A program made the position numbers and the translations under genes. The notes beneath the pieces are model-generated. The model was not told the origin of the DNA and ran no database searches. It saw nothing but the letters and a program-made list of their open reading frames with translations. Of a stretch of DNA of 39,401 nt, positions 7,664 through 27,282 are shown piece by piece. Source of the DNA: Phycisphaerae bacterium (lineage in GTDB: Bacteria > Planctomycetota > Phycisphaerae > SM23-33); contig JBKHJB010000001.1 of assembly GCA_046538345.1 (NCBI GenBank), positions 1 through 39,401 on the forward strand, read 5' to 3'. The stretch's first letter is position 1. The number at the start of each line of letters is the position of its first letter.

Positions 7664-7681
7664 GCCGCGGGTTGTGGGTGA

Positions 7682-8689: not shown

Positions 8690-9564
8690 GTGCGCCATCG
8701 CGACATCCCGGAGAGGTGAAGCGCGGCTGGATACATTTCGGCGTGGCCGCCGGTCTGCTGGTCCTTGCACTGGGAGGACTGGGTTTCGCCGTTACTTATC
8801 TGGAAGTGGCGCTCCAGAAGGAACCCGTGCCCTGGCCGGAAGATACGCGCGTCAGCGACGATTTCCGTCTGCGCGGGCTGCCTGAGCAGTTCGGGCCTTA
8901 CCGGATGTTGGATACCAACGGTGAGACCGTGCTGGAGGGCGATATTCTGGATTCTCTCGGTGTGGGCCGACCTATAGACGCTCGACGATTGCCCGATCGC
9001 ACCAGCAACTGGTACTTGATCCGTCGCTACGAGGACACGCGCAAGGACGAGTCCAGTCCCTACAAATACTGGCAGTTGGAGGCGTATTACTACACCGGCG
9101 AATACCGCACCGTCCCGCACGTGCCGGAGCGTTGCCTGCCGGCGGCCGGTGCCGAAGCCGTCGAGGGCCAGAGCGGCGCGGTTACATTCTCGCTACCGCC
9201 GCTGGACGAGGACCGGCCCCTGTGGGACACCGGCGAGCTGGTGTTCCAACGGGCGGCCTACGCCACTACGCGCGGGAGGATGCGGGAAGACCGCCTGATG
9301 ACGGTGTACTACATCTTCAGTATCAACGGCGAACCGGAGGACTCTTGGTTGCAGGTCCGCCGGCGGCTGGTTTGGCCGTTCGACAAGTATTGCTACTTCG
9401 CAAAGATTCAGTTCTCGCCGCTGGGTCCTGGAAAAATCGAGGACCTCGACGAAGCCGACCGTGCGGCCGAGGAGTTCATGAACCATGCCATGGAGCATGT
9501 TATCAAGCATTTCCCTTCCGTTAAGGACATGCGGGACCTGAGCGAGCAAGAATCATCGAGCTGA
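8686..9564 (+). CDS. EpsI-family (exosortase-associated, DUF3485-like) membrane-anchored protein
   Basis: The ATG at 8686 overlaps the exosortase TGA (ATGA). It gives MSAPSRHPGEVKRGWIHFGVAAGLLVLALGGLGF (TM), then LPEQFGPY... The position immediately after the exosortase is typical for EpsI. The ORF-track start at 8338 would overlap the exosortase by about 350 nt and was rejected. Confidence 0.6.
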   Translation: MSAPSRHPGEVKRGWIHFGVAAGLLVLALGGLGFAVTYLEVALQKEPVPWPEDTRVSDDFRLRGLPEQFGPYRMLDTNGETVLEGDILDSLGVGRPIDARRLPDRTSNWYLIRRYEDTRKDESSPYKYWQLEAYYYTGEYRTVPHVPERCLPAAGAEAVEGQSGAVTFSLPPLDEDRPLWDTGELVFQRAAYATTRGRMREDRLMTVYYIFSINGEPEDSWLQVRRRLVWPFDKYCYFAKIQFSPLGPGKIEDLDEADRAAEEFMNHAMEHVIKHFPSVKDMRDLSEQESSS

Positions 9565-9582
9565 TGAACCCAGAGATAGAAA

Positions 9583-14034: not shown

Positions 14035-14045
14035 GAGCTGAACAG

Positions 14046-16244
14046 ATGAGCCGTATCCCAACAAGAGATCAGGTTCCGCAGATATCGCGGGGACCGTCGC
14101 CTTCAGGCCCGCGCCCGCAACAGCCGGGTGCCGGTTCCGGTGGCGGATTCACCGGTCGCGACGCTCTGCGCGTGGTGCGGCAGCGGTGGTTGCTGATTCT
14201 GCTTTCGCTGCTGATTTGCTCCGGATTGGCGGCCGGGGGCACGGCTACGTGGCTGGCTTTCGCGCCGATGTACACAGCCACTGCCTATATAGAGGTCCTT
14301 CCGCCCAAGGGCAGTGAATTGACGGACAACCAGCGGCTATATAACGAGCAGATTATGGACCGTCTGGTGCAGGACGCCGCTGCGATCGTCAAGACCGAGC
14401 CGGTTCTGGAGGACGCTCTGGACGACCCTGAGGTCAGTCAGACCAGATGGTACCGCCAACGGAGCCCCGGCGACGTATTGGAAGACCTTTCCAAAGAAAT
14501 CGGGGTCGGGGCGGTTCCGAACACCAACTACATACGCGTATCGATGCGCGGGTTCAACAAAGCCGACCTGCCGGGCATTGTCAACGCCGTGAGCGAGGCG
14601 TTTGAGCGAGACACGCTTGAGCAGGTCGCTGGGACGCGACAGAAACAGATAGAACGCATGGGCCAGGAACGGGAGAACCTGGATTCCCAGCTTGAGAACG
14701 TTAACAGTCGCATCGAGAATACAATCAGCAACGCCCAGGTTTCCAACATCGGCGATCGCCGCAACACCCTTGCCGTCCGGATGGAAACCTACATCTCGCA
14801 GATGATCCAATTGGAGACGGAATTGGCTCAGGCCGAGGACTCCCTGGAAGCCATCCGCGAACAGGTCCAGCGGGACGAGCTGGCCAGCAACCCCCAGGTG
14901 GCTTACGCCATCCGGAACGACCCCAGCGTCCGCGCCATGCGCAACGCGCGTGTAAACATGTCCACGGAACTCCAGAACATGCTGCGGACCTACGGTCCGG
15001 ACCATCCGCGGGTCGCCGAGATGCGCTCCGCTCTGGAGGGCATGGAAGAACAGATACAACAGTTGGAGAACGAAATCGCGCGCGAGGAGGGCGAGGCGCT
15101 GGTGAACATGACCATGTCCGAGGTCAGCCAGTTGCGCGCCCAGTTGCTCAAGGTCCAGTCCAACTACAACGAAGCCGAGCGCAACATGCGCGACGTGCAG
15201 ACTCGCCTGACAGAGCTGGAGGAACTCCGCAACCGGCGTGATAACATTGAGCACAATATCGAGCGGCTTGACCAGGCGTTGGTGGAGTTGCGTTTGCTGG
15301 CATCAGGTGACTACCGGGTGCGCGTGCGGCGCCGGGCCACCGAGCCGCGCCGGCCCTCCATGCCTCAATGGCATATCATGATGCCGGTCGGAGTTCTGCT
15401 CGGACTGATTATCGGGTTCGGCGGGGCGTTTCTCCTGGAGTTCATCGACACTTCGGTCAAAAGCCCCACGGATATATCCCGCAGGGTGGAACTGCCAGTG
15501 CTCGGTATGGTCCCGCATATCGAGGACACCGAGGAAGAGTTGGAGGACATGCGTCTGGCGTTTCGTACGCATCCCAACTCGTTGGTTGACGAGGCATTCA
15601 GGCAGATACGCACGTGTCTGCTGTTCAGCGGACCGGCCAGTCAGCGACGCAGCTTGCTGGTGACCAGTCCGTTGCCCGGCGACGGACGGACCAGCGTGGC
15701 GCTGAATCTGGCCGCCTCCGTCGCCCGCGGTGGACGCCGCGTGCTGGTGGTGGACGCCAACTTCCGCCAGCCCGCCATCGGACAGTTATTCCCCGACGCT
15801 CCGGAGGAAGGGCTTAGCAGCGCTGTGGTGGGGCGGGCAAATTGGACCGATTGCGTCTATGAAGTGGAGGAAAACTTCCACGTAATGCCGGCCGGGCATA
15901 TGCCGCCCAACCCGGCCGAATTGCTCGGCTCCGACGAGATGCGCCAACTGCTCAGCGAAATGGAGAACCAGTACGACCAGGTCCTGCTGGACAGCGCCCC
16001 GTGCCTGGTGGTGACCGACCCTTGTGTGCTGGCGTCGCTGACCGACGGCGTGGTGCTGGTGGTCCGGGCGGGCAGCAACACCTACGGAATCGTGCAGCGT
16101 ACGCGTGACATGCTCTCGCGAGTGGGTGCCCGCACGCTGGGTGTCGCGCTTAACGGCGTCCGCGCGACCGCCGGCGGATACTTCCGAAGGAACTACGAGA
16201 CCTTCTACGAGTATCACCAGCCGCAGCAACTGCCGAAGTCATAG
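14046..16244 (+). CDS. Polysaccharide co-polymerase / BY-kinase (Wzc/GumC-like) with an atypical P-loop
   Basis: AGGAG SD 8 nt upstream. Wzz-like N-terminus with a TM helix, a long coiled coil and a second TM helix. CpsD/CapB-like ATPase domain: SPLPGDGRTSVALNLA (Walker A with R in place of K), VLVVDANFRQP (A'), VLLDSAP (B). Tyr-rich tail GGYFRRNYETFYEYH. Confidence 0.85.
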   Translation: MSRIPTRDQVPQISRGPSPSGPRPQQPGAGSGGGFTGRDALRVVRQRWLLILLSLLICSGLAAGGTATWLAFAPMYTATAYIEVLPPKGSELTDNQRLYNEQIMDRLVQDAAAIVKTEPVLEDALDDPEVSQTRWYRQRSPGDVLEDLSKEIGVGAVPNTNYIRVSMRGFNKADLPGIVNAVSEAFERDTLEQVAGTRQKQIERMGQERENLDSQLENVNSRIENTISNAQVSNIGDRRNTLAVRMETYISQMIQLETELAQAEDSLEAIREQVQRDELASNPQVAYAIRNDPSVRAMRNARVNMSTELQNMLRTYGPDHPRVAEMRSALEGMEEQIQQLENEIAREEGEALVNMTMSEVSQLRAQLLKVQSNYNEAERNMRDVQTRLTELEELRNRRDNIEHNIERLDQALVELRLLASGDYRVRVRRRATEPRRPSMPQWHIMMPVGVLLGLIIGFGGAFLLEFIDTSVKSPTDISRRVELPVLGMVPHIEDTEEELEDMRLAFRTHPNSLVDEAFRQIRTCLLFSGPASQRRSLLVTSPLPGDGRTSVALNLAASVARGGRRVLVVDANFRQPAIGQLFPDAPEEGLSSAVVGRANWTDCVYEVEENFHVMPAGHMPPNPAELLGSDEMRQLLSEMENQYDQVLLDSAPCLVVTDPCVLASLTDGVVLVVRAGSNTYGIVQRTRDMLSRVGARTLGVALNGVRATAGGYFRRNYETFYEYHQPQQLPKS

Positions 16245-16384: not shown

Positions 16385-16456
16385 GCCGGCGTAGCTCAAT
16401 GGTAGAGCACCGCTCTTGTAAAGCGGAGGTTGCGGGTTCGAGTCCCTCCGCCGGCT
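16385..16456 (+). tRNA. tRNA-Thr: tRNA-Thr (anticodon UGU)
   Basis: Manual cloverleaf: acceptor GCCGGCG/CGCCGGC, D arm GCTC-AATGGTA-GAGC, anticodon arm CCGCT-CTTGTAA-AGCGG (anticodon TGT), variable AGGTT, T arm GCGGG-TTCGAGT-CCCTC (one C.U mismatch), discriminator T. No encoded CCA. Confidence 0.9.
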
Positions 16457-16580
16457 TTCCGGCGCCCGGGCGCGCCGCATCAGTGCTCGTCGGTTCGCCG
16501 GTGCAAAGCTCCCCAGGATGTCGGACCGCCCGGGTCGCACCACTTTCTCCGCTCGCGTAAGGCAGGATCGGAACCGAAAC

Positions 16581-17582
16581 ATGTCCCGTATATCCATAGC
16601 ATTGGCCGTGTGGTCGCTTATCACCCCTCTCGGCTGCGCCGAGACGCCGGAAGCCGGCGCCCGGCAGCCGTCGGCCGACGGCCGTACCTTGCAGGATGCC
16701 GAAGAAACAGCCGATAGCGGCAAGCAGGACGACCTGACCTGGCGCATCTACGACACCATGCACGACCGCCCGGGCAGTCAGGCGTCGCTGGGCAGACATG
16801 GCATCGTACCCGCCCATGTTTTTATGAAGAACAGCTTCTACGAGCCAGGCGAGGATAAGGGCGAGCCGCCGACCGAGAAGCGGGTCAAGAAGTTCGCCCG
16901 GAAGATTCCCCACGAAGTCCTGACATGCATGGACCTGGAGGGCGAGGACTGGACGCGCTTGACGTATTGGGACTCCGACGCCGGCGACTGGGCTTTCAAC
17001 GAAGACGCCTACGAGACGATGCTCAATATCGCCCGGTGGATAAACGAAGCCAACTCTGATTTGACGTGGGGATTCTTCTGGCGACCACCCGTTAGTGGAC
17101 TCTGGAAGTCGGCCCACAAAAACCATCTTGAAGGCAACACCGAGCGGGCCGAGGAAATAATGTCGCGGTGGCGGGAATACGAAGAACGCATCGAGCCGCT
17201 GTACCACGAGGTGGACGTAGTAATCGTTTCTCTTTACTACACCGACAGGCGGTACAGAACCTTTGCGGAGTTTCAGCAGGCGGCCGCGTTCTTCTTCGAG
17301 CACTGGGAAAATCCCACCGATAAGCCGGTCTATGTCTTCATGTGCCCGCTGGACCCCTACACGAACACCTCACGCGGGGGAAAGTTTCTTTCACGGCAGC
17401 ACTGGCGGTGGTGTATGGATTTCGCTTACGAGCACACCGACGGGCTGCTGCTGTGGTCGGACGTGCCCTTCGACTGGGACACGCACGCGAAAGGTCGGCC
17501 GTGGTGGGGGGAAACCCAGCGGTTCCTTCGAGAAATCAACCGCACCGAACGTCTCCGGGAGGACGACTCCGCCGCCCGCTGA
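16581..17582 (+). CDS. Hypothetical secreted lipoprotein, possibly a glycosidase-like TIM barrel
   Basis: The ATG at 16581 gives MSRISIALAVWSLITPLGCAE (lipobox LGC). It has a D-x-E motif (CMDLEGEDW) and LLWSD, reminiscent of substrate-assisted glycosidases. The functional call is weak. Confidence 0.45.
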   Translation: MSRISIALAVWSLITPLGCAETPEAGARQPSADGRTLQDAEETADSGKQDDLTWRIYDTMHDRPGSQASLGRHGIVPAHVFMKNSFYEPGEDKGEPPTEKRVKKFARKIPHEVLTCMDLEGEDWTRLTYWDSDAGDWAFNEDAYETMLNIARWINEANSDLTWGFFWRPPVSGLWKSAHKNHLEGNTERAEEIMSRWREYEERIEPLYHEVDVVIVSLYYTDRRYRTFAEFQQAAAFFFEHWENPTDKPVYVFMCPLDPYTNTSRGGKFLSRQHWRWCMDFAYEHTDGLLLWSDVPFDWDTHAKGRPWWGETQRFLREINRTERLREDDSAAR

Positions 17583-17723: not shown

Positions 17724-19022
17724 ATGAGGATCATGGCTACGCGAACGACACGAAACGAACTTGATGGCAGGACTCTCTGGATACCCCCCATGACCTATGT
17801 GGGGGCGCGCCTGGCGGCGGCCGTGTTCCGCGGAATCGGCATCGACGCGCGGATTACTCCACCCTCCGACGAGCGCACGCTGGAGCTGGGTGGGCTTTAC
17901 AGCTCGGGCGAGGAATGCTACCCGCAGAAGGTCACCATCGGCGACTTCCTCCGCGTTATCCACTCCGAGGATTTCGACCCCGACAAGACGGCCTTCTTTA
18001 TGCCAATAGCCGAAGGCCCGTGCCGCTTCGGGCAGTATGCACCGTACTTCAAGCAGGTCCTCGGCGAGCTGGGACACGAGGATATCCCCGTCATCTCGCC
18101 TTCGAGCAAGAACAGCTACGACGAGATGGGCGAGCACGGCAGTGAGATGATCCGCACGCTGTGGCGCGGGCTGGTGGCGTCGGACATACTGCGCAAGATG
18201 CTGCTCAAGACCCGACCCTACGAGACCGAAAAGGGCGCCGCCGACAACGCCTTTGAGCGGAGCATAGAACTCATCGAGGAAGTTCTCGAGTCGCAGGGTC
18301 TTTCCAGTGGCGAGTTGATTGACCGGCTCGTGGATGCACTAATCCGCTCGCGTGAATTGTTCCGGGCGGTCCCGGCGCGATACACCAAGGACCGGCCGCT
18401 CATCGGCGTTGTGGGGGAGATATTCTGCCGGCTGAACACCTTCAGCAACTACGACGCCGTCCGCAAGATCGAAGCCCACGGCGGCGAGGCCTGGATGAGC
18501 GACGTTACCGAGTGGGTGTGGTACACAAACTGGTCCCAGCAGCACCTGCTGAAACGCGACGGGCGAACCATCTCACTGGAGATGCTCGGCGCCAAGATCA
18601 AAAACGCCGTCCAGCGCCGCGACGAGCATAAGCTGCTGGAACCGTTCGCCGAGGAGTTCGTCGGTTATGAGGAGCCGCACGACGTTTACGAGGATGTGCT
18701 CAAGCCCTCCTGGCCGTATCTGCCCGCCGACGGTGCGCTGGGCGAGATGGTCCTTTCGGTCGGAAAGAGCATCTATCTCTATGAGAAGGGCGTCGATGGG
18801 ATTATCGACATCAGCCCGTTCTCCTGCATGAACGGTATCGTCTCTGAGGCGGTGTACCACAGGGTCAGCGAGGACCACGATTCGCTGCCTATGCGCAATT
18901 TCTACTTCGATTCCACCACCAGCAACATGGAGCGCGACCTGGACATCTTCATGGAGTTGGCGCAGAGCTATCGCAAGCGAAAGCGCAAGCCACGGCGGTA
19001 TCCGGCTTACTTCGAAGACTAG
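17724..19022 (+). CDS. 2-hydroxyacyl-CoA dehydratase-related / CoA-enzyme-activase-associated protein (DUF2229/HGD-D-like)
   Basis: Motifs SSGEECYPQKVTIGDF, PCRFGQY, PLIGVVGEIFCRLNTFSN and IIDISPFSCMNG. These resemble the CYPAK.. / GEI(Y/F).R / F.C motifs of acyl-CoA dehydratase activase-related proteins, recalled from memory. The start is uncertain (17646, 17724 or 17733). Confidence 0.6.
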   Translation: MRIMATRTTRNELDGRTLWIPPMTYVGARLAAAVFRGIGIDARITPPSDERTLELGGLYSSGEECYPQKVTIGDFLRVIHSEDFDPDKTAFFMPIAEGPCRFGQYAPYFKQVLGELGHEDIPVISPSSKNSYDEMGEHGSEMIRTLWRGLVASDILRKMLLKTRPYETEKGAADNAFERSIELIEEVLESQGLSSGELIDRLVDALIRSRELFRAVPARYTKDRPLIGVVGEIFCRLNTFSNYDAVRKIEAHGGEAWMSDVTEWVWYTNWSQQHLLKRDGRTISLEMLGAKIKNAVQRRDEHKLLEPFAEEFVGYEEPHDVYEDVLKPSWPYLPADGALGEMVLSVGKSIYLYEKGVDGIIDISPFSCMNGIVSEAVYHRVSEDHDSLPMRNFYFDSTTSNMERDLDIFMELAQSYRKRKRKPRRYPAYFED

Positions 19023-19036
19023 AATGAGGATGATAG

Positions 19037-19052
19037 CGGGCGACTGCGCCCG
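19037..19052 (+). other. Short GC hairpin between the dehydratase-like and radical SAM genes
   Basis: CGGGCG-ACTG-CGCCCG (6-bp stem, 4-nt loop), followed by AGAGTTGTTTCC. It could be a weak attenuator or an mRNA-stability element. There is no clean U-tract. Confidence 0.2.
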
Positions 19053-19087
19053 AGAGTTGTTTCCGTGCGAAGGGACGGCGACCGCAA

Positions 19088-20959
19088 ATGGGCGACTCTT
19101 CAGCAACCCCGGCGGCTTCCACGCAGACACGTCGAACCGCCGACCACCGGGAAACAAAACAGTCGGAGCTTGCGGCGCGGCGAAAGGCCGTGCGGCGTTT
19201 TACGCGGACTTTGCGCGACCTGCCGCACGAGACCCGCGCGACCTGTCCGACCTGTCGTGAAGTCGTACCCGCTGGGTTCGACCGTGCCGGCGACCGGATA
19301 GTACTGCATTACCACTGCCCTCGCTGCGGTGAACGCAGGGAAGCCCACCACGACCATATCTGGACGCCGACTGCCAGTGACGTGCCCGGCAGCGCCACGC
19401 AAACCTGCCTCGGCTCGCGCATTCGTCCTGTCCTGCGTCGCCTGCCGCGGACCGTCGAGTCGCTCTGCCCGCACTGCCACGCCCTTGTCATCGGACGGAT
19501 ATTCGTCGAGGACGGGGCGGTGTTCATGGAAAAGACCTGCCCGGAGCACGGTTATATCCGCGACTGCGTCAACAGCGACGCTCTGCTCTACGCCAAGAGC
19601 CAGTGGTGGAGCTTCGAGGAGCACCCGGGCCACCAGCGCCCTCACGTTACAGGCGGCGGGTGGTGTCCGTCGGATTGCGGGCTGTGCAATCAGCACCTTT
19701 CCAGCCCGTGCCTGGCGCAGATTGACGTGACCAACCGCTGCAACCTTCGCTGCCCTGTATGCTTCGCCAACGCCGCGGTCACCGGCAAGCTCCTGGAGCC
19801 GGACTATGGCGAGGTAGTCCGCCGCTTGCGGGTCTTGCGTGACCTTCGGCCGATACCAGCCACAGCCGTCCAGTTCACCGGCGGCGAGCCGACAATACAC
19901 CCGGATTTTCTCCGCATACTCGCCGCCGCCAGGGACATGGGCTTCAGCCACATACAGGCGGCGACCAACGGTATTCGTCTGGCCGACGCCGACTTCGCCG
20001 AAGCGGCGGCCGATGCCGGACTGCATACGCTGTACCTGCAGTTCGACGGCGTCGGCGCCGAGGCGCACCGCTACACGCGAGCGTGTCCGGGGCTGTGGGA
20101 GAAGAAACTCGCCACCATCGAAAACTGCCGCCGGACCGGCATGAAAGTCTGCCTCGTGCCGACCATCATCCGTGGCGTCAACGAACGGCAGGTGGGCGAG
20201 ATATTCCGCTTCGCCGTCGAAAATATCGATGTTGTCAGCGCCATCAGCTATCAGCCCGTCGCTTTCACCGGCCGTATCGACGATCAGCAGCGCGCCGAGC
20301 AGCGCTACACCCTCGGCGACCTGGCCCACGACATCGCCGACGCATCCGGCGCGGTTCCGTTGCGGGACATGTTCCCGCTGAGCATCGTCGCGCCGCTGGG
20401 GCAGTTCCTCGAGGCGATTACAGGCAACCCCAAGATCCGCCCCAGTTGCCATCCGGACTGCGCCTTCGGGACGTACTTTCTGGTTTCTGCCGAGGGCAGG
20501 GCGTACCCCTTCCCCGAAGTAGTGGACGTGGAGGGAATGTTCACGGACATGAACCGCTTCGCAAGGCGCATAAAAAGTCGAGGCCGCCTGGGCTGGTTTG
20601 ACAAGATCCGCGTACTGCGGATGTTCAAGCGGCACTTCAAGCCCGAGTCCGCACCGCCGGGACTGGACGTGAAGCGTTTTGTCCGAACTCTTCAGGGCCT
20701 GGTGGACAAAAAAGCCGGTCGGGGCGAGGGCGAAAAGCAGACCTACAAGACACTGCTTTGCGCCGGCATGCACTTTCAGGACCGATACAATTTCGACGTC
20801 GAGCGCGTAAAAAGATGCGTCATACTCTACTCCACCGAGGCCGGCGTCCTTCCGTTCTGCACGCATAACTGCGGGCCGGAGTATCGCACGGCCATCGAGT
20901 CGGACTTTGCCGACCCGGTGGGCAGCTACGAAGCCCGGATTACGGAGCCGAACGAATGA
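19088..20959 (+). CDS. Radical SAM enzyme, MJ0619/Tes (GDGT-MAS, class D-like) family candidate, with an extra N-terminal zinc ribbon
   Basis: Radical SAM motif CNLRCPVC (19739-19762), preceded by CPSDCGLCNQH..PC. N-terminal CPHC..(x22)..CPEHG ribbon plus an additional CPTC..CPRC ribbon. C-terminal MHFQDRYNFDVERVKRC..LPFCTHNC. This motif order matches my recollection of the MJ0619 family. Confidence 0.75.
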   Translation: MGDSSATPAASTQTRRTADHRETKQSELAARRKAVRRFTRTLRDLPHETRATCPTCREVVPAGFDRAGDRIVLHYHCPRCGERREAHHDHIWTPTASDVPGSATQTCLGSRIRPVLRRLPRTVESLCPHCHALVIGRIFVEDGAVFMEKTCPEHGYIRDCVNSDALLYAKSQWWSFEEHPGHQRPHVTGGGWCPSDCGLCNQHLSSPCLAQIDVTNRCNLRCPVCFANAAVTGKLLEPDYGEVVRRLRVLRDLRPIPATAVQFTGGEPTIHPDFLRILAAARDMGFSHIQAATNGIRLADADFAEAAADAGLHTLYLQFDGVGAEAHRYTRACPGLWEKKLATIENCRRTGMKVCLVPTIIRGVNERQVGEIFRFAVENIDVVSAISYQPVAFTGRIDDQQRAEQRYTLGDLAHDIADASGAVPLRDMFPLSIVAPLGQFLEAITGNPKIRPSCHPDCAFGTYFLVSAEGRAYPFPEVVDVEGMFTDMNRFARRIKSRGRLGWFDKIRVLRMFKRHFKPESAPPGLDVKRFVRTLQGLVDKKAGRGEGEKQTYKTLLCAGMHFQDRYNFDVERVKRCVILYSTEAGVLPFCTHNCGPEYRTAIESDFADPVGSYEARITEPNE

Positions 20960-21447
20960 GAAAACTTGCGACGTTGCTGATATGCGTTTTGGCGGGAGGC
21001 GCCTTGCTGTTCGGCTGTGCCGGGAATAATGGTGAGCTGGACGATCCCGAGGTGCCTCGCGTGACCGAGTCGGACAACCTGCGGCTGACCCTCGATGTCT
21101 CTGACCGCCAGGTCGCCGTTGGAGAGAAGTTGAAAGTGCGGCTGACCGCGCGGAATACCGGCTCGGAACCCATCAAGATCACCGCCCGCAGCGGAGCATT
21201 GATGCGCGTGCGTATCTGGCAGGAGACACCTATCGGCTGGACGACCGTCAAGCAGTATCCCGAGGCCGCCATCATGGTCATCACCCCTTGGACGCTGGAA
21301 GCAGGCCGGCAGCGGCAGTTTGATATGGGGCTTACGGTCGATAAGGACTGGCCCACGGCCGAGACCATCCGGCTGACGGCGGAGCTGAACGGCCGAAGTG
21401 ACGTAAGGGTCGGCGCCAAGATCGAAGTCGCCCCACGCGGCGGTTAA
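20956..21447 (+). CDS. Small secreted lipoprotein, beta-sandwich-like (possibly BsuPI/inhibitor-like fold)
   Basis: The ATG at 20956 overlaps the upstream TGA (ATGA), with GGAG 8 nt upstream. Signal peptide with lipobox MRKLATLLICVLAGGALLFGC. The alternating beta-strand pattern LKVRLTARNTGSEPIKI is the only basis for the fold guess. Confidence 0.55.
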   Translation: MRKLATLLICVLAGGALLFGCAGNNGELDDPEVPRVTESDNLRLTLDVSDRQVAVGEKLKVRLTARNTGSEPIKITARSGALMRVRIWQETPIGWTTVKQYPEAAIMVITPWTLEAGRQRQFDMGLTVDKDWPTAETIRLTAELNGRSDVRVGAKIEVAPRGG

Positions 21448-21450
21448 GGC

Positions 21451-23148
21451 ATGATAAGTCCATCCAGCGACAAACCAACCGGCGACCAATCGTACACCGC
21501 GGCCGGAAAACACACCACAGCCGCGCAGCTTGGCAAGAGCTACCAGCACGAGTTTCCACCGTCAAGCAACCCCCACAAAAGCCCCGACCGCGCCGAGGAC
21601 GGAGTGCTCAACAGCGGACGGTACGCGCGTGAAAGCTCCACTCTCGCCGACCGCATAACACCCTCGGCCGTGCGGATAGACTATCACCATCCGCTGGAAA
21701 ACTGGCTGGGGCACCCGGCGTTCCGTCGGCTGTTGCGAATGCTTTCTCGGGACGACGCCCGCGGGCTAACCGCTCTGGAGCGCATCATAACCAGCTACCG
21801 CAACGGCGATGCTCCGCTCGGCGAACGGCTGAAGTACTGGGCGTTCCACAAGCTCATCGACCGCTTGCGCGGCGATACCGACGTGGCGACTTTCCGTCGT
21901 CGTCTCGCCGAGCACGGGCCCACGGTTCGCGGGCTGGTCATCGTCGCCCGCAGCGTGGGCGAATTCGGCCTGACGGTCCCGCAGCGGTTCACTGCGCCGT
22001 TGTTTGCGGTGTGGAACTTCACCAACCGCTGCAACCTGTCGTGTCCCCACTGCTACCAGGACAGCGAACACACGGCGCTGGCCGGCGAGCTGTCGCTTTC
22101 CGAGAAGCTCGACGTGATCGACCAGATGGGCCGGGCACACATGCCGATGGTCGCTTTCAGCGGCGGCGAGCCGACGCTCAGCGAGGACCTTGTCCCCGCT
22201 ATCGAGCGTGCCCGGCGGTACGACATGCACGTCACCATCGCCACCAACGGCACGACGATGACCCGCGAGCGGGCACGGCGGCTCGCCGAGGCGGGGTTGA
22301 GATACGTCGAGATATCGCTGGATTCGGTCGATCCCGAAAGGCACGACCACTTCCGCGGCGTACCGGGCATGTGGCAGCGGGCGGTGCAGGGCGCGAAAAA
22401 CGTCGTCGCGACCGAAGGCCTGCGGCTGGGCATCGCGATGTGCGTCCACCGCGGCAACGTCGATGAGGTCGAGGAGATGATCGACTTCGCCGAGCGGCTC
22501 GGCGCCGGGTGCTTCGCGCACTTCAACTTCATACCGGTCGGCCGGGGGTTGAAAATGGTCTCCGGCGATATCACACCGCGGCAGCGCGAGCAACTGCTGG
22601 CGCTGCTTAACGAGAAGATGCAGCAAGGTGGCATTGGCATACTGTCCACCGCGCCGCAGCTCGGACGGGTCTGCCTCGCCGGCGCGGCTCTGGACACCGG
22701 GCTTACCACCTGCTCGCACGCCGGCAGCGGAAGCGGGGTAAAGGCGCGCGTGGTCGCCAAGTATCTCGGCGGATGCGGGGCCGGTCGAACCTATATCTGC
22801 ATCGAGCCGCATGGCGATGTCACTCCCTGCGTGTACCTGCCCCATCGAGTCATGGGCAACCTGCGCGACAGGCCGCTGATGGATATCTTCCGTCGCAGCG
22901 TGTTCTGGGACATCCTCAACGACCGCAACCGGCGACTGCATCATTGCGAGGTATGCGCGTTCAAGAACTACTGCGGCGGCTGTCGGGCGCGGGCGGATGC
23001 CTATTTCGGACAACTCCACGCCGGCGACCCCGGTTGCGTGTTCAACAGTAAACACTGGGACCGCCTGGTCGCCGACGGCGTGGCGGTACTCGGCGAGGCC
23101 GGCGAAGTCCCGGCCGAGTCCACAGTGTTGCGCCACGGTCCAGCGTAA
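21451..23148 (+). CDS. Radical SAM/SPASM-domain enzyme, NirJ/AhbC/AhbD-like, with a ~190-aa N-terminal extension
   Basis: CNLSCPHC (22030-22053), GGEPTL, and a C-terminal Cys-rich SPASM-like region (CGAGRTYICIEPHGDVTPC...CEVCAFKNYCGGCRARA). It starts 3 nt after the preceding stop. The true start inside the low-complexity N-terminus is uncertain. Confidence 0.8.
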   Translation: MISPSSDKPTGDQSYTAAGKHTTAAQLGKSYQHEFPPSSNPHKSPDRAEDGVLNSGRYARESSTLADRITPSAVRIDYHHPLENWLGHPAFRRLLRMLSRDDARGLTALERIITSYRNGDAPLGERLKYWAFHKLIDRLRGDTDVATFRRRLAEHGPTVRGLVIVARSVGEFGLTVPQRFTAPLFAVWNFTNRCNLSCPHCYQDSEHTALAGELSLSEKLDVIDQMGRAHMPMVAFSGGEPTLSEDLVPAIERARRYDMHVTIATNGTTMTRERARRLAEAGLRYVEISLDSVDPERHDHFRGVPGMWQRAVQGAKNVVATEGLRLGIAMCVHRGNVDEVEEMIDFAERLGAGCFAHFNFIPVGRGLKMVSGDITPRQREQLLALLNEKMQQGGIGILSTAPQLGRVCLAGAALDTGLTTCSHAGSGSGVKARVVAKYLGGCGAGRTYICIEPHGDVTPCVYLPHRVMGNLRDRPLMDIFRRSVFWDILNDRNRRLHHCEVCAFKNYCGGCRARADAYFGQLHAGDPGCVFNSKHWDRLVADGVAVLGEAGEVPAESTVLRHGPA

Positions 23149-23195: not shown

Positions 23196-23801
23196 TCAGA
23201 CGTTGTGCCTTGTAGTGCGACTACCGCCGGCAAACGGCCAACCGTCGTAGGGAACCACGAACGGGTACCGGACGAACGGGATCCGGTGTTTGCGGAAATT
23301 GTCCTCGATGTAGCTGATACACGAGCGAATCTCTCCGGGCGTGGACTTGTACCAGTCGCAGACATCCGCGCTGAAAACCGGATGATTCGGCGGCACGAGG
23401 CGCTTCGTTTGCAGCGTGCGTCTTGTCTGTTGCTTGATTTCCTCCCGCATCTGCTCGCCTTTGAGACGATGCTTGCGGATAAGCAGGTGAACGTGATCGG
23501 ACAGGATCGCGCACGCATAGCATGTCAGCCGCCGTTCTTTCATGACCTCGTCGATAGCTTCGGCTGTGGCTTGCCGTTCGGCGCTGTTAAACCATAGCGT
23601 CGGATACGCCAGGCGTTGCTCGGCATGTTTGTAAAAGCTGCGCAGCTTGGAGCGTGTGGGCTGGACGGTTTTGCGCCCGTAGTGTGATTCGCCCATCTCG
23701 CGCAAAAGCGGCGTGTGAGTTTGTCCGGACATGCTGCCGCGTGGGTCATTCGGTAACCAGTGACCGTATGCGGTCAGGATGAGATGGTGTGCGAGTATCA
23801 A
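23196..23801 (-). CDS. IS200-like Y1 (HUH) transposase homologue, RAYT-like, solitary
   Basis: HUH motif SDHVHLLI (codons at ~23487-23495) and the C-terminal Tyr motif ISYIEDNFRKH. The N-terminus is HHLILTAYGHWLPNDPRGS. TTG start at 23801, 9 nt downstream of the preceding stop. There is no TnpB and no obvious flanking hairpin ends. Confidence 0.7.
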   Translation of the reverse strand: MILAHHLILTAYGHWLPNDPRGSMSGQTHTPLLREMGESHYGRKTVQPTRSKLRSFYKHAEQRLAYPTLWFNSAERQATAEAIDEVMKERRLTCYACAILSDHVHLLIRKHRLKGEQMREEIKQQTRRTLQTKRLVPPNHPVFSADVCDWYKSTPGEIRSCISYIEDNFRKHRIPFVRYPFVVPYDGWPFAGGSRTTRHNV

Positions 23802-23810
23802 GGTTTCCCC

Positions 23811-24965
23811 CTATGCATGCTCCCGCTCCCACTCTTTCTCGTCCCCGGTGAAAAGCCGCACCCTGCGCTTGGCGTATTCGTCGCGTGTCCACAGTTCAAC
23901 GCGGTTGGTGAGTCCGGTGGTCGCGACAAGCTCGTCTATCGTCATTCGGCAGTCCTGTTCGTCGCGGCCGTGAATCATGGTATAGAGATTATAGGGCCAA
24001 TCGGGTGCGGTTTCCCGCAGCATGCAGTGGCTCACGCGGTCGCAGTCTGCCAGGCGGGCGCCGGCCGTGTCCGCGTCGCCGGCGCGCCAGGCGACCATGA
24101 CGTTGGTCCGCGCGCCGGCGGAGCGATGCCGCAGGACCGCGGCGTAACGGCGCATCCGGCGTCCTTCCAGCAGCTCGCGGGCAATTGTGAGCAGTTCGTC
24201 CACACTCAGCCCTTCATCGGCGGCCAGTGCGTCGAAGGGCTTTGCCTCGGCGGGCAGGTCGCGCTGCAGGGCGCGGATCGCCAGTCGCTGTCTTTCGGTC
24301 GGTTCAATGGGTGTTGCGGGCGGATCGGTCGATGCGGGCTTGGATATCCGTCCCGGCCGGTGGGGATCGAAACGCACGGCCAGCTTGTACCTGTCAAGAG
24401 CGGGCAGCACCATGTGCCGCTCGGCCGATGTAAGCTCGGCCAGGCGTTTCGCTGTTGCCTCCAGGCCAAGTCGGCTGTGCGGGCTTACCGCCAATGTCAG
24501 CCAGAGGTTATATTCCGCAACGCCCGCGGGCTTTCTGAGATGCCGGGAATAGCAGTGCGAGACGCCGGGGTGTGTCGCCACGAGCCGCCCGGCCGAGTCG
24601 AGCGCGTCTTGCTCAACGCTCAGCGCCACCAACGCCTGACGGTAACCCAGTGCGGCGGCGTCGAAGATGCCCGATATCTCGCGGATAACCCCTCGCCCGT
24701 CTCGCAGGTCAGCAGTTTGCCGGAGCACTTCGTTTTCATTGCGCCCGAGTTGTTCGGCGATCGCCCGAAACGGATGAGCGACAAGGGGAACTGCGCTTTG
24801 GAGTTGCTCCAGCAGGCGGGTGTCGAGGTCGCTGTCGGTCACTTCACTGGTCTGGGCCTGGGCGCCGGCGTCGCGAACCGCAGCACGTCGTCGGCGCCCC
24901 GGGCCTTTATATGTCCCACAGCTCAGGCCCGCGCCGCAACGCCTTGGGCCTGGAGAAAATCTCAT
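23811..24965 (-). CDS. Fused NirD/NirL (AhbA/AhbB)-type siroheme decarboxylase-like protein (two Lrp/AsnC-like modules)
   Basis: Two tandem modules. Module 1: LDTRLLEQLQSAVPLVAHPFRAIAEQLG..EVL....GVIREISGIFD..ALGY...LVA..V....HPGVSHCYSR...YNLWLTL. Module 2: the same pattern, with RVSHCMLRE and YNLYTMIH. The ATG at 24965 overlaps the upstream gene by 59 nt. An alternative GTG at 24842 would remove the overlap. Confidence 0.7.
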   Translation of the reverse strand: MRFSPGPRRCGAGLSCGTYKGPGRRRRAAVRDAGAQAQTSEVTDSDLDTRLLEQLQSAVPLVAHPFRAIAEQLGRNENEVLRQTADLRDGRGVIREISGIFDAAALGYRQALVALSVEQDALDSAGRLVATHPGVSHCYSRHLRKPAGVAEYNLWLTLAVSPHSRLGLEATAKRLAELTSAERHMVLPALDRYKLAVRFDPHRPGRISKPASTDPPATPIEPTERQRLAIRALQRDLPAEAKPFDALAADEGLSVDELLTIARELLEGRRMRRYAAVLRHRSAGARTNVMVAWRAGDADTAGARLADCDRVSHCMLRETAPDWPYNLYTMIHGRDEQDCRMTIDELVATTGLTNRVELWTRDEYAKRRVRLFTGDEKEWEREHA

Positions 24966-25647: not shown

Positions 25648-26685
25648 TTATTCCTCCGGATTCTCGGGCGGGGCTTCCTCACCGCCGATGTTCTCTCTCA
25701 TGGACGTATCGGCCTGGATGTTCTGCAGCCGGTAGTAGTCCATCACGCCCAGGTTGCCCTTTCGGAACGCCTCGGCGATGGCCTTGGGTATCTCCGCCTC
25801 GGCTTCGACCACCTTTGCGCGGTTCTCCTGGGTAAGCGCCTTCATCTCCTGCTCGCGGGCGCTTGCCATGGCACGGCGCTTCTCGGCCTCGGCCTGGAAG
25901 CGTCGTTTGTCGGCTTCGGCCTGGTCGGCCTGAAGCTTCGCGCCGACGTTCTCGCCAACGTCCACGTCGGCGATATCGATGGAGAGAATCTCGAACGCAG
26001 TCCCGGCGTCGAGACCCTTTTCCAGCACTCGACGACTGATGCCGTCGGGATTCTCCAGCACGTCCTTGTATGTCTCGGCTGAGCCAATGGTTGTGACGAT
26101 GCCCTCGCCTACGCGGGCGACGATGGTCTCCTCGGTGGCACCACCGACGAGGCGGTCGATATTGGCGCGGACGGTTACGCGTGCCTTGGCCTTGACTTGG
26201 ATGCCGTCCTTGGCGACGGCATCGACGGTGTTTTTGCCCCCCGCGGGATTAGGGCAATCAATGACCTTCGGATTAACCGAGGTCTGGACGGCGTCGAGGA
26301 TATCTCTACCGGCGAGGTCGATGGCGGTCGCCACCTTCCAATCCAACTGGATGTTCGCGCGGTTTGCGGCGATCAGTGCCCGCACGACGTTTATGGGTCT
26401 TCCGCCGGCGAGATAGTGGTTCTCAAGCTCGGCCGTGGTCACCTGTATGCCCGCTCGCACCGCCTGGATTCGGCTCAGGACGATCGCGTTGGGGTTAACG
26501 CGCCGCAGGCGCATTCCGATCATCTCGAAGATGCCTACACCCGCTCGCGCCGACAGCGCCTGGATCCACAGCCCGAACAGCGGTCCGAACAGCAGCAGAA
26601 ATACGAGCGCTACTATGATTGCGATAACCAGAAGCGCCCATTTCAGCACTGTTCCGGCAGTGGCGGCCAATATGAAAGTCGTCAT
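25648..26685 (-). CDS. floA: Flotillin-like protein FloA (YqfA/UPF0365 family)
   Basis: The ATG at 26685 gives MTTFILAAT... Near full-length similarity in style to FloA: [60 protein letters not shown], and the C-terminus [21 protein letters not shown]. Confidence 0.85.
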
Positions 26686-26772
26686 GAAAGTGCCCTTTCC
26701 ATTTGTTGAGTTGTCTCCCTCACCCATACTACCACCGACCGCACGCGTTGCAAGCTTATGCCGGTCGAGGAT

Positions 26773-27282
26773 TCAGGATTCGTCATCTTCCGGGATTTCC
26801 CGCACCACCAGGTTAAGCCCGCTGTAGCGTATTACCTTCACGCGGGCACCTTTTGCTATCATATTACTCTCGGCGGTCGCCGTGAGACGTTTGCCGTCTA
26901 TGCGTACCGCTCCGACCGGTCGCAGATACGTCTCCGCGACGCCCTCTTTGCCGACTAGCGTGCTTTCCTCAGCGGCCGCGGGCGTGCCCTCGCCGGGGGT
27001 ATCTTTCCATTCGGCGGCCTTGAGGAACAGCTTCTTGCCCAGCGGCGAGTCCGGCAGCAGACGCACCACCATCACCAGATATGTCGGTATCAGAACTATT
27101 GTTACCACCAGCATTACCAGGCCGAACGCCTCGTGGATGGTGAAGGCCACGTAAATAGCCCCGCCCAGTGCCGCCAGCCCGATGGCAATGAGCACGCCGA
27201 ATGTCGGCGTGACGATCTCCAGGATGAACATCACCAGCGCCGCTATCAGCAGCACCAGTATGATAGCCAGTTCAGTACCCAT
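26773..27282 (-). CDS. Short NfeD-family membrane protein (C-terminal OB-fold)
   Basis: Two or three TM helices, then GKEGVAETYLRPVGAVRIDGKRLTATAESNMIAKGARVKVI (NfeD OB domain pattern). The start overlaps the upstream stop by 1 nt (TAATG), with an AGGAGG SD. Confidence 0.7.
   Translation of the reverse strand: MGTELAIILVLLIAALVMFILEIVTPTFGVLIAIGLAALGGAIYVAFTIHEAFGLVMLVVTIVLIPTYLVMVVRLLPDSPLGKKLFLKAAEWKDTPGEGTPAAAEESTLVGKEGVAETYLRPVGAVRIDGKRLTATAESNMIAKGARVKVIRYSGLNLVVREIPEDDES

What the first reader, a model, noticed from the sequence alone, without database searches (positions are those of the whole stretch)
17724..23148. Tightly coupled four-gene cassette: dehydratase-like protein + Tes/MJ0619-class radical SAM + small lipoprotein + radical SAM/SPASM enzyme
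Seen directly:
- Four same-strand genes with junctions of a 65-nt gap, a 4-nt overlap (ATGA) and a 3-nt gap, i.e. operon-like.
- Gene 1 has 2-hydroxyacyl-CoA-dehydratase/DUF2229-type motifs. This domain family is also part of the anaerobic plasmalogen synthase PlsA and of the bacterial glycerol ester reductase (Ger) proposed for ether-lipid formation.
- Gene 2 has the motif order I associate with the archaeal tetraether lipid synthase family (Tes / GDGT-MAS, MJ0619): rubredoxin-like CxxC..CxxHG, CxxxCGLC..H, then CNLRCPVC, then a C-terminal HF.D..F D..R..C..FC..N.
- Gene 4 is a second radical SAM enzyme with a SPASM auxiliary-cluster domain.

Inference: a dehydratase/reductase-type Fe-S enzyme with two radical SAM enzymes and an exported lipoprotein does not match any characterised bacterial pathway that I know. 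It could be a membrane-lipid tail-coupling or ether-forming module (membrane-spanning lipids). Alternatively it could be a tetrapyrrole or other cofactor tailoring module.
Basis: partly seen in the sequence, partly recalled or inferred. Interest (0 to 1): 0.8.

Follow-up and report, generated by a model that had tools for sequence, protein, structure and literature searches.

The report
Bacterial membrane-spanning ether-lipid gene cassette
A Phycisphaerae bacterium carries a conserved four-gene block (an ether-bond reductase subunit, the tetraether synthase Tes, a small lipoprotein and a GMGT-synthase-like enzyme) that probably makes archaea-like membrane-spanning lipids; most of it is already described, but the link to the reductase subunit appears unreported.

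Summary
Four same-strand genes sit at the stated coordinates with the stated junctions.

- **Gene 2** is a bona fide Tes/GDGT-MAS homologue. It passes the NCBIfam equivalog cut-off, matches 7TOL at E=4e-109, keeps every published metal ligand, and is already named Tes in GenBank.
- **Gene 4** is an "extended AhbD homologue" with a helical N-terminal domain and a SPASM domain. That is the published architecture of GMGT synthase (Gms/Hbs), whose bacterial homologues are reported to cluster with tes in Planctomycetes.
- **Gene 1** is not a generic dehydratase. It is a free-standing PlsR-type module, equivalent to the C-terminal part of plasmalogen synthase PlsA-PlsR and glycerol ester reductase Ger. 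Its ATPase-bearing PlsA partner is missing from this contig but lies directly upstream in some relatives and is fused to it in others.
- **Gene 3** is a fast-evolving, dispensable lipoprotein of unknown function.

Across 81 related loci the block is the conserved unit, while the flanking genes vary.

Best reading: a module for ether formation, tail coupling and chain bridging that makes brGDGT/brGMGT-type lipids. No product has been measured. The tes-gms cluster is published; the tight PlsR-tes linkage was not found in the literature I could search.

The parts
17724..19022 (+). g1: free-standing PlsR-type module of the BCR/HAD radical-enzyme family, equivalent to the C-terminal part of fused PlsA-PlsR/Ger. 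The GenBank start is 17733 (429 aa, MFP3936696.1, 'hypothetical').
   Evidence: - It shares 35-39% identity (E~1e-70) with residues ~1000-1420 of ~1400-aa proteins carrying BcrAD_BadFG x2, DUF2229 and HGD-D.
- Standalone homologues P0121 and P0133 are the second gene of two-gene plsA-like/plsR-like operons.
- Cys65, Cys100 and Cys368 are invariant across the family.
- The AF2 model (pLDDT 78, pTM 0.82) best matches DCCP 7YYL and 3-methylbenzoyl-CoA reductase MbdO/N.
- It lies directly upstream of tes in 64 of 69 loci.
19023..19087 (+). 65-nt g1-g2 spacer holding a GC hairpin (19037-19052) with a weak T tail.
   Evidence: Sequence read. flags it as terminator-like, but the region's count (9) is not clearly above the shuffle expectation (5.5 +/- 2.3). 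Its function is unknown; it could be an attenuator or nothing.
19088..20959 (+). g2: tetraether synthase Tes (GDGT-MAS family radical SAM enzyme) with an extra N-terminal zinc-ribbon domain (residues ~46-85).
   Evidence: - NCBIfam NF045702 scores 484.9 bits against a cut-off of 450.
- 7TOL matches at E=4e-109 over residues 119-614.
- All published ligands are conserved: C127/C130/C151/H154, C193/C197/C200, C218/C222/C225, M561, Y581 (numbering from PMC9433317).
- A second Zn_ribbon_HMPTM is present and is conserved in 75 of 79 orthologues.
- GenBank name: 'tetraether lipid synthase Tes'.
20956..21447 (+). g3: small exported lipoprotein, probably an Ig-like beta-sandwich, function unknown. It is an accessory, fast-evolving and dispensable member of the block.
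   Evidence: - It has a signal peptide and lipobox; a lipobox-like Cys is present in 46 of 53 orthologues.
- Orthologues share only 26-47% identity outside the two closest relatives (60-75%); it is present in 42 of 51 loci that have g4.
- Only sub-threshold matches were found, to Arrestin_C, BsuPI and NPCBM_assoc.
- It overlaps the g2 stop codon by 4 nt.
21451..23148 (+). g4: radical SAM/SPASM enzyme with a helical N-terminal domain, a Gms/Hbs (GMGT synthase)-type 'extended AhbD homologue'.
   Evidence: - Pfam finds Radical_SAM and SPASM.
- The best NCBIfam hits are NirJ2 at 236 bits and AhbD at 212 bits, both against cut-offs of 500.
- The radical SAM motif is C194-x3-C198-x2-C201. Ten further Cys are invariant between residues 408 and 529.
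- The AF2 model shows helices at 82-172 (pLDDT ~90), a radical SAM barrel at 185-359, a bridging region at 376-409 and a SPASM domain at 430-540.
- The top structural match is SuiB, E~1e-14.
- This architecture matches the published Gms model (PMC11186832; bioRxiv 10.1101/2023.10.20.563219).
- It lies downstream of tes in 51 of 60 loci.

Best explanation
The cassette is the core of a membrane-lipid remodelling locus conserved in anaerobic Phycisphaerae. I propose it converts ordinary bilayer glycerolipids into membrane-spanning, ether-linked, possibly bridged lipids of the brGDGT/brGMGT type.

Proposed steps:

1. **Ether formation (g1).**
   - g1 is the PlsR-type catalytic subunit of a split PlsA-PlsR/Ger enzyme.
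   - With a PlsA-type partner (two HgdC-like ATPase activator domains plus a DUF2229 domain), encoded elsewhere in this genome, ATP-driven low-potential electrons would be delivered to its three-Cys [4Fe-4S] site.
   - This would reduce a glycerol acyl ester to a vinyl or alkyl ether.
2. **Tail coupling (g2).** Tes uses its radical SAM cluster, two auxiliary [4Fe-4S] clusters and rubredoxin-like iron to join the terminal sp3 carbons of two alkyl chains from opposite leaflets. This yields a membrane-spanning lipid.
3. **Chain bridging (g4).** The Gms-like SPASM radical SAM enzyme adds a mid-chain C-C bridge between the two spanning chains, giving an H-shaped lipid.
4. **g3** is an exported lipoprotein of unknown accessory role.

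Shown here:
- family identities;
- conserved ligands;
- gene order across about 80 loci;
- a fused, then split, then dispersed series for the plsA part.

Inferred:
- the substrates and products;
- the order of the steps;
- that g1 still works with a PlsA partner;
- co-transcription.
For: **g2 is Tes.**
- It passes the NCBIfam Tes equivalog cut-off.
- It is homologous to GDGT-MAS over its full length.
- All published metal ligands, the labile Met and the conserved Tyr are retained.

**g1 is PlsR-type.**
- It aligns to the C-terminal module of proteins with the BBD(H) architecture. Sahonero-Canavesi et al. define that architecture for Ger, and it corresponds to PlsA+PlsR (PMC13159169, PMC12838417).
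- Distant standalone homologues are the second gene of plsA-plsR-like pairs.
- Three Cys are invariant.
- The fold is BCR/HAD-like.

**Linkage between the ether enzyme and tes.**
- A fused BBD+g1-like gene (1480-1509 aa) lies directly upstream of tes in L074, L076, L079, L080 and L081.
- A split PlsA-type gene (BBD, 1065-1140 aa) lies directly upstream of g1-tes in L025, L032, L046, L048 and L072, and about 2 kb upstream in L047.
- The PlsA-type gene lies a few kb (about 5-8 kb) downstream of the cassette on the other strand in L004, L038 and L075.

**g4.**
- It has the domain plan published for Gms (PMC11186832).
- Bacterial gms is reported to cluster with tes in Planctomycetes (PMC11214058).

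**The block is the conserved unit**, and g2-g3-g4 have translationally coupled junctions.
Against: - No bacterial Tes homologue has been validated experimentally (PMC11868695, bioRxiv 10.64898/2026.06.23.733905), so the substrate and product are unknown.
- No PlsA-type activator gene exists anywhere on this 39.4-kb contig. It is directly adjacent in only 7 of 50 informative loci, so g1 may have acquired a PlsA-independent role.
- g1 itself misses the Pfam DUF2229 and HGD-D models.
- I could not place g4 in a tree with experimentally verified Gms proteins or test it against COG4001.
- A hairpin in the g1-g2 spacer leaves co-transcription of g1 with g2-g4 open.
- The deeper-branching loci with the fused ger-like gene lack g4, and the loci labelled Actinomycetota lack g1. 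The three enzymes are therefore separable.
Confidence: 0.68

Rival explanations
1. g1 has been co-opted as a Tes-specific accessory and no longer works as an ether-forming PlsA-PlsR enzyme. It could, for example, act as an Fe-S electron relay, present lipid to Tes, or carry out a different reduction or dehydration on the Tes substrate or product.
For: - g1 stays next to tes in 64 of 69 loci, while the PlsA-type gene is adjacent in only 7 of 50 and absent from this contig.
- A fourth Cys (C235) is conserved in the standalone clade but not in the fused enzymes.
- Activator-less PlsA homologues of unknown role are noted in Bacillota (PMC13274423).
Against: - C235 also occurs in P0121 and P0133, which sit in ordinary plsA-plsR pairs without tes.
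- The g1 orthologues that do have PlsA adjacent are just as similar to the window's g1 (67-73%) as those that do not.
- All characterised BCR/HAD-family enzymes need an ATP-dependent activator (established knowledge of the family; DCCP:DCCP-R is the top structural match).
Confidence: 0.18
2. The Tes homologue acts on something other than fatty-acyl or alkyl glycerolipids, or makes a different product. Candidates are isoprenoid or other hydrocarbon chains as substrates, or macrocyclic diesters/diethers as products. In that case the cassette would not be a brGDGT route.
For: - Archaeal Tes also makes macrocyclic archaeol, and some Tes paralogues make only traces of product (PMC8941075).
- Halobacterial Tes homologues occur in organisms that make no GDGT (PMC8941075).
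- This clade carries an extra N-terminal zinc ribbon that is absent from MjTes.
Against: - All catalytic ligands are conserved.
- The gene is linked to an acyl-ester-reducing enzyme family and to a Gms-like enzyme that needs two spanning chains.
- GDGT-MAS can bind ester-linked phosphatidic acid (cited in PMC13274423).
- No isoprenoid-lipid genes recur in the neighbourhoods.
Confidence: 0.12
3. g4, and perhaps the whole neighbourhood, serves tetrapyrrole biosynthesis. g4 would be an AhbD/AhbC/NirJ-type enzyme working with the adjacent siroheme decarboxylase AhbA/B.
For: - g4's nearest curated families are NirJ2, AhbD, NirJ1 and AhbC.
- A fused ahbA/ahbB gene lies 660 nt downstream and recurs within 10 kb in 11-12 of 81 loci.
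Against: - Scores of 181-236 bits are far below the 500-650 bit equivalog cut-offs.
- g4 has an extra conserved N-terminal helical domain, which the preprint 10.1101/2023.10.20.563219 reports as absent from AhbD.
- ahbAB is on the opposite strand, convergent, and in the window is separated from g4 by a transposase-like gene.
- g4 follows tes in 51 of 60 loci, including contigs labelled Actinomycetota that have no ahbAB.
Confidence: 0.05

Closest known systems
Tetraether synthase Tes / GDGT-MAS (M. jannaschii MJ0619, PDB 7TOL/7TOM; M. acetivorans MA_1486)
   Same: - Homologous over the full length (E=4e-109) and above the NCBIfam equivalog cut-off.
- The same four metallocentres are present: rubredoxin-like C-x2-C...C-x2-H, [Fe4S4]N with three Cys, the radical SAM CX3CX2C motif, and [Fe4S4]C with the labile Met.
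- The conserved Tyr is retained.
   Different: - The host is bacterial.
- About 118 extra N-terminal residues carry a second zinc-ribbon domain, conserved in 75 of 79 orthologues.
- The substrate is presumably fatty-acid-derived rather than phytanyl; this is untested.
- The gene is embedded between a PlsR-type gene and a Gms-type gene.
Published bacterial tes-gms (tes-hbs) gene clusters of Planctomycetes and Acidobacteria (Garcia et al. 2024, PMC11214058; preprint 10.1101/2023.10.20.563219)
   Same: - A Planctomycete tes gene is followed by an extended AhbD homologue with an N-terminal domain and a SPASM domain.
- The ratio of Gms to Tes carriers (51/60 here) is similar to 90/110 Planctomycetota MAGs in the Black Sea (PMC11868695).
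   Different: - Those papers' main texts mention neither a plsA/plsR/ger-type gene nor a lipoprotein in the cluster.
- Here the PlsR-type gene is the most constant neighbour of tes, and a lipoprotein gene usually separates tes from gms.
Plasmalogen synthase PlsA-PlsR (C. perfringens CPE1194/1195) and glycerol ester reductase Ger (T. maritima Tmari_0479)
   Same: - g1 is homologous to the PlsR / C-terminal portion.
- The three Cys are conserved and the fold is BCR/HAD-like.
- Relatives show the canonical two-gene arrangement or the fused arrangement, with two activator domains as in Ger.
   Different: - In the window, and in most Phycisphaerae loci, the PlsR-type gene is detached from its PlsA partner and attached to tes.
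- The Pfam models do not detect it.
- Whether the product would be a vinyl or an alkyl ether cannot be told from sequence (PMC13274423).
Mss + Ger route to bacterial membrane-spanning ether lipids (Thermotoga, Bacillota; PMC13159169, PMC13274423)
   Same: The logic is the same: a radical SAM tail-coupling enzyme combined with a PlsA-family ester reductase.
   Different: - The coupling enzyme here is Tes, not Mss.
- In the loci examined here the tes and PlsR/Ger-type genes are physically adjacent.
- A Gms-type bridging enzyme is added.

Membership tests
Tes / GDGT-MAS (tetraether synthase) | Score above the curated equivalog cut-off of NCBIfam NF045702 | tested here: met
   484.9 bits against a cut-off of 450, covering residues 123-610 of the protein and positions 2-485 of the 486-position model.
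Tes / GDGT-MAS (tetraether synthase) | Four metallocentres with the published ligands (C9/C12/C33/H36; C73/C77/C80; CX3CX2C; labile Met439) and conserved Tyr459 | tested here: met
   All map to identical residues in g2: C127/C130/C151/H154, C193/C197/C200, C218/C222/C225, M561, Y581 (numbering from PMC9433317).
Tes / GDGT-MAS (tetraether synthase) | Catalyses terminal C(sp3)-C(sp3) coupling of two lipid tails | not testable with these tools
   This needs an enzyme assay or heterologous expression. No bacterial Tes has been validated (PMC11868695).
Gms / Hbs (GMGT synthase) | Radical SAM CX3CX2C motif plus a C-terminal SPASM domain with 7-8 further Cys | tested here: met
   Pfam finds Radical_SAM and SPASM. 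C194/C198/C201 and ten further Cys between residues 408 and 529 are invariant. The best structural match is SuiB.
Gms / Hbs (GMGT synthase) | N-terminal domain of ~100 aa (COG4001), modelled as six helices and absent from AhbD | tested here: inconclusive
   A conserved N-terminal region at ~80-172 is predicted as 6-7 helices with pLDDT ~90. This matches the description in PMC11186832 and preprint 10.1101/2023.10.20.563219. No COG4001 profile was available, and Pfam and NCBIfam have no model for the region.
Gms / Hbs (GMGT synthase) | Falls in the clade of experimentally verified Gms, separate from the AhbD outgroup | not testable with these tools
   Two homologue searches returned only Planctomycete-type sequences. 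The sequences of AAL80771.1 and WP_062369926.1 could not be obtained.
Gms / Hbs (GMGT synthase) | In bacteria, clustered with tes or mss | tested here: met
   It lies downstream of tes on the same strand in 51 of 60 informative loci.
PlsR / C-terminal module of PlsA-PlsR and Ger (BCR/HAD family) | Homology to the C-terminal ~400 aa of fused BcrAD_BadFG x2 + DUF2229 (+HGD-D) proteins | tested here: met
   35-39% identity, E~1e-70 to 1e-77, to residues ~1000-1420 of ~1400-aa proteins, whose architecture was confirmed by Pfam.
PlsR / C-terminal module of PlsA-PlsR and Ger (BCR/HAD family) | Encoded next to, or fused with, a PlsA-type activator/DUF2229 gene | tested here: not met
   There is no PlsA-type gene on the window contig. 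The feature is met in relatives: adjacent in 7 of 50 loci, fused in 5 distant loci, and forming two-gene operons for P0121 and P0133. The partner may lie elsewhere in the genome, which could not be checked.
PlsR / C-terminal module of PlsA-PlsR and Ger (BCR/HAD family) | Conserved Cys ligands for a [4Fe-4S] cluster and a BCR/HAD fold | tested here: met
   Cys65, Cys100 and Cys368 are invariant in 33 of 33 diverse family members. Foldseek matches DCCP 7YYL (E=1e-4, prob 1.0) and MbdO/N 9GAI/9G87, with modest TM scores of ~0.4.
PlsR / C-terminal module of PlsA-PlsR and Ger (BCR/HAD family) | Pfam PF09989 (DUF2229) or PF06050 (HGD-D) hit | tested here: not met
   No hit at E<=10 for the window protein. 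Homologues give only 'faint' PF09989 hits.
AhbD / AhbC / NirJ (haem and haem d1 radical SAM enzymes), considered for g4 | Score above the curated equivalog cut-offs | tested here: not met
   NirJ2 236/500, AhbD 212/500, NirJ1 185/650, AhbC 181/650, NirJ 175/515 (bits/cut-off).
GrsA/GrsB (GDGT ring synthases), considered for g4 | B12-binding Rossmann-like N-terminal domain and no auxiliary clusters | tested here: not met
   g4 has a SPASM domain and a helical N-terminal domain, with no B12-binding domain. Grs architecture is taken from PMC13459092.

The most novel reading that the evidence does not exclude
In anaerobic Phycisphaerae a PlsR-type reductase subunit may have become a dedicated partner of Tes. 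The operon, together with a PlsA-type activator encoded elsewhere, would then be a self-contained, genetically linked route from diacyl phospholipids to bacterial tetraether and H-shaped tetraether lipids (brGDGT/brGMGT). This would be the first case in which the ether-forming, tail-coupling and bridging steps are physically linked. It would give a ready-made construct for the first experimental proof of bacterial Tes function, and a marker for anoxic-environment sources of brGDGTs.
Probability: 0.35. Interest if true: 0.7.

Novelty: new member of a known kind. Interest (0 to 1): 0.45.

Why it matters
brGDGTs and brGMGTs are widely used palaeotemperature and pH proxies. Their producers and biosynthesis remain only partly known. 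Tes homologues in bacteria are a leading but untested candidate for the coupling step, and Ger/PlsA for the ether step.

A conserved locus in widespread anaerobic Planctomycetes joins a PlsR/Ger-type gene, tes and a gms-like gene. This is independent genomic support for the proposed pathway. It points to Phycisphaerae as sources of these lipids in anoxic waters and sediments. It also defines a compact gene set for heterologous expression.

The enzymology itself is not new: every enzyme belongs to a described family.

Tried and rejected
- **Direct family scans.** Pfam and NCBIfam scans of g1 and g3 gave nothing, even at E<=10. A PDB sequence search with g1 gave only noise.
- **g4 as a GDGT ring synthase.** I considered this because GrsA homologues are reported in Phycisphaerae (PMC11868695). 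I rejected it because Grs enzymes are B12-binding and have no SPASM domain (PMC13459092).
- **g4 as AhbD, AhbC or NirJ.** Rejected on score cut-offs, the extra N-terminal domain and synteny.
- **Reaching archaeal, experimentally verified Gms sequences.** I tried a search with g4 and a search with the more divergent homologue from a contig labelled Actinomycetota. Both returned only Planctomycete-type proteins annotated 'radical SAM protein'. The supplement of the PNAS paper, which shows the gene-cluster figure, is not held.
- **The gene upstream of tes in L077.** I tested whether this 519-aa gene is a divergent g1. It is not: hhalign probability 0.1. It is an unrelated helical lipoprotein.
- **Promoter and terminator scan.** No sigma-70-like promoter was found, and terminator-like hits were not above shuffle expectation.
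- **g3 profile searches.** Searches against PDB and Pfam gave only sub-threshold Ig-like similarities.
- **Other co-conserved lipid genes.** De novo clustering of neighbourhood ORFs found no further recurrent family, such as methylases, Grs or isoprenoid-lipid genes, beyond PlsA-type, FloA/NfeD and AhbAB.

Full report
**Source and observation**

The window is a 39,401-bp contig of a Phycisphaerae metagenome-assembled genome. Its four proteins are GenBank MFP3936696-99.

The junctions are exactly as described: a 65-nt gap, an ATGA overlap and a 3-nt gap. GC content is uniform across the region. The long antisense ORFs are high-GC shadows of the coding strand: in related loci they recur only where their sense genes do.

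**Gene 2 is Tes**

- It passes the curated NCBIfam equivalog cut-off for tetraether lipid synthase Tes, 484.9 bits against 450.
- It aligns over residues 119-614 to the crystallised M. jannaschii GDGT-MAS, 7TOL, at E=4e-109.
- Mapping the published ligand numbering (PMC9433317) through that alignment shows every ligand conserved:
  - rubredoxin-like C127/C130/C151/H154;
  - [Fe4S4]N C193/C197/C200;
  - radical SAM C218/C222/C225;
  - the labile Met (M561) of [Fe4S4]C;
  - the strictly conserved Tyr (Y581).
- One difference from the archaeal enzyme is an N-terminal extension of about 118 residues holding a second HMPTM-type zinc ribbon. This is conserved in 75 of 79 orthologues.
- GenBank already names the protein 'tetraether lipid synthase Tes'.

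**Gene 4 is Gms-like, not AhbD and not Grs**

- It has Radical_SAM and SPASM domains.
- Its nearest curated families are NirJ2, AhbD, NirJ1 and AhbC, but at 181-236 bits against cut-offs of 500-650.
- An alignment of 46 homologues shows an invariant CX3CX2C motif, ten further invariant Cys between residues 408 and 529, and a conserved N-terminal region from about residue 80.
- The AlphaFold model (pTM 0.81) has four parts:
  - a confident helical domain at 82-172;
  - the radical SAM barrel at 185-359;
  - a two-helix bridging region;
  - the SPASM domain.
- Its best structural match is SuiB.
- This is the architecture published for GMGT synthase Gms/Hbs.
  - It is described as an 'extended AhbD homologue' with an N-terminal COG4001 domain of about 100 aa.
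  - The domain is modelled as six helices, followed by a radical SAM domain, a bridging region and a SPASM domain, with SuiB as the reference structure.
  - Sources: PMC11186832; bioRxiv 10.1101/2023.10.20.563219.
- Garcia et al. report 71 Planctomycete Gms homologues and state that bacterial gms genes occur in clusters with tes (PMC11214058).
- GrsA and GrsB, also reported in Phycisphaerae (PMC11868695), are B12-binding enzymes without SPASM domains (PMC13459092). g4 is therefore not a Grs.
- I could not obtain verified archaeal Gms sequences or a COG4001 profile. Clade membership rests on architecture, synteny and the literature.

**Gene 1 is a PlsR-type module**

g1 has no direct Pfam or NCBIfam hit. 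The evidence for its identity is indirect but consistent.

- An exhaustive search of 1.8 billion representative proteins found 2,331 relatives. The standalone proteins of about 430 aa grade into matches to the C-terminal ~400 residues of ~1,400-aa proteins, at 35-39% identity and E~1e-70.
- Those long proteins carry two BcrAD_BadFG ATPase domains, DUF2229 and HGD-D.
  - This is the architecture described for Ger (PMC13159169).
  - It corresponds to PlsA plus PlsR of C. perfringens, which are fused in many bacteria (PMC12838417, PMC8788747).
- Two distant standalone homologues are each the second gene of a two-gene pair. Each overlaps the stop of a 1,030-aa BcrAD_BadFG+DUF2229 gene. This is the canonical plsA-plsR layout.
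- Cys65, Cys100 and Cys368 are invariant across standalone and fused members. I read this as a three-Cys [4Fe-4S] site like those of HAD-type enzymes; that comparison rests on my own knowledge of the family.
- The g1 model (pTM 0.82) best matches DCCP and the 3-methylbenzoyl-CoA reductase catalytic subunits. [quoted passage not shown]

**Synteny**

A scan of one genome per species found 170 tes relatives. I analysed 80 of these plus four other loci.

| Feature | Count | Informative loci |
|---|---|---|
| g1 directly upstream of tes, same strand | 64 | 69 |
| g4 downstream of tes | 51 | 60 |
| g3 between tes and g4, among loci with g4 | 42 | 51 |
| Most frequent flanking gene of the window (FloA) | 17-18 | 81 |

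- g1, g2 and g4 orthologues share about 65-75% identity. g3 shares only 26-47%, apart from the two closest relatives at 60-75%.
- The PlsA-type partner shows a graded series:
  - In loci labelled Sedimentisphaerales or Pirellulales, a fused gene of 1,480-1,509 aa (BBD plus a g1-like C-terminus) lies directly upstream of tes, and g4 is absent.
  - In several Phycisphaerae loci, a 1,065-1,140-aa BBD gene lies immediately upstream of g1-tes(-g3)-g4.
  - In three loci it lies a few kb (about 5-8 kb) downstream of the cassette on the other strand.
  - In most loci, including the window, it is not nearby.
- Contigs labelled Actinomycetota have tes-g4 without g1.

**Mechanistic reading**

The components fit the pathway proposed for bacterial branched tetraethers: tail coupling by Tes or Mss plus ester-to-ether conversion by Ger/PlsA (PMC13159169, PMC13274423). 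Gms-type bridging would give brGMGTs (PMC11214058).

The family assignments and the linkage are shown here. The lipid substrates, the products, the order of steps and the continued dependence of g1 on a PlsA activator are inferences. No bacterial Tes has been tested experimentally (PMC11868695).

g3 is an exported lipoprotein with only sub-threshold Ig-like similarities. Its role is open.

**Rivals**

- The haem reading rests on the convergent ahbA/ahbB gene 660 nt downstream, which recurs in 11-12 of 81 loci. Score cut-offs, the extra domain, gene orientation and the much stronger tes linkage all argue against it.
- A PlsA-independent role for g1, or a non-brGDGT product for Tes, cannot be excluded.

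**Novelty**

Already published:
- Tes homologues in Planctomycetes (PMC8941075, PMC11868695).
- Gms homologues clustered with tes (PMC11214058).
- Ger homologues in the phylum (PMC13159169, PMC11868695).

Full-text searches for DUF2229, plsA or ger together with tetraether terms found no description of a PlsR/Ger gene physically linked to tes. That linkage, the lipoprotein and the extra zinc ribbon are the increments.

I therefore rate this a new member of a known kind, with a moderately interesting and directly testable extension.

Noticed in passing
window 23811-24965 (-): A fused AhbA/AhbB siroheme decarboxylase gene (NCBIfam AhbB 203 bits, AhbA 173 bits, both above cut-off) lies convergent to g4. 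A homologue recurs within 10 kb of the cassette in 11-12 of 81 related loci, at varying positions. No ahbC or ahbD lies nearby.
   Followed up: partly
window 23196-23801 (-): A weak REP-associated tyrosine transposase / IS200-like gene (below cut-offs) is inserted between g4 and ahbAB. It is found in only 2 other loci, so it is probably a local insertion.
   Followed up: partly
window 19088-19450 (+), residues 46-85 of g2: A second HMPTM-type zinc ribbon (C-x2-C...C-x2-C, then HHD.IW) lies ahead of the canonical rubredoxin-like domain of Tes. It is absent from M. jannaschii GDGT-MAS and conserved in 75 of 79 bacterial orthologues examined.
   Followed up: partly
window 5849-16244 (+), tRNA at 16385-16456: An exopolysaccharide/exosortase locus lies upstream. 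It holds a Poly_export/SLBB protein, exosortase EpsH, a 1,483-aa TPR protein and a 732-aa protein whose L004 homologue hits CBP_BcsQ/AAA_31. A tRNA-Thr(TGT) follows. The same arrangement flanks the cassette in L004 and a few other loci.
   Followed up: partly
window 25648-28928 (-): A FloA flotillin-like gene and two NfeD genes sit near the cassette in 15-18 of 81 loci. They are the most frequent neighbours after the four genes. Their membrane-microdomain function may or may not be related to lipid remodelling.
   Followed up: no
L077 8311-9870 (+), contig labelled Actinomycetota: A 519-aa helical lipoprotein with a lipobox sits directly upstream of tes-gms. It is unrelated to g1 and g3 and has no Pfam hit. 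It is a second, independent case of a lipoprotein gene attached to tes.
   Followed up: partly
window 19037-19052 (+): A GC-rich hairpin (CGGGCG-ACTG-CGCCCG) with a weak T tail lies in the g1-g2 spacer. It could be an attenuator or terminator separating g1 from g2-g4, but it is not statistically distinguishable from background.
   Followed up: partly
window 16518-17582 (+): A 354-aa ORF directly upstream of g1 has no Pfam or NCBIfam hit and a homologue in only one related locus. It is not part of the conserved block.
   Followed up: partly
g1 residue 235 (window ~18426-18428): A fourth cysteine, Cys235, is conserved in the clade of standalone PlsR-type proteins closest to g1 (12 of 16 standalone sequences in the alignment). 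It is replaced by an aliphatic residue (Val, Ile, Leu, Met or Ala) in the other four standalone proteins and in the C-terminal modules of all 17 fused or longer PlsA-type proteins aligned. This may change the cluster ligation.
   Followed up: partly
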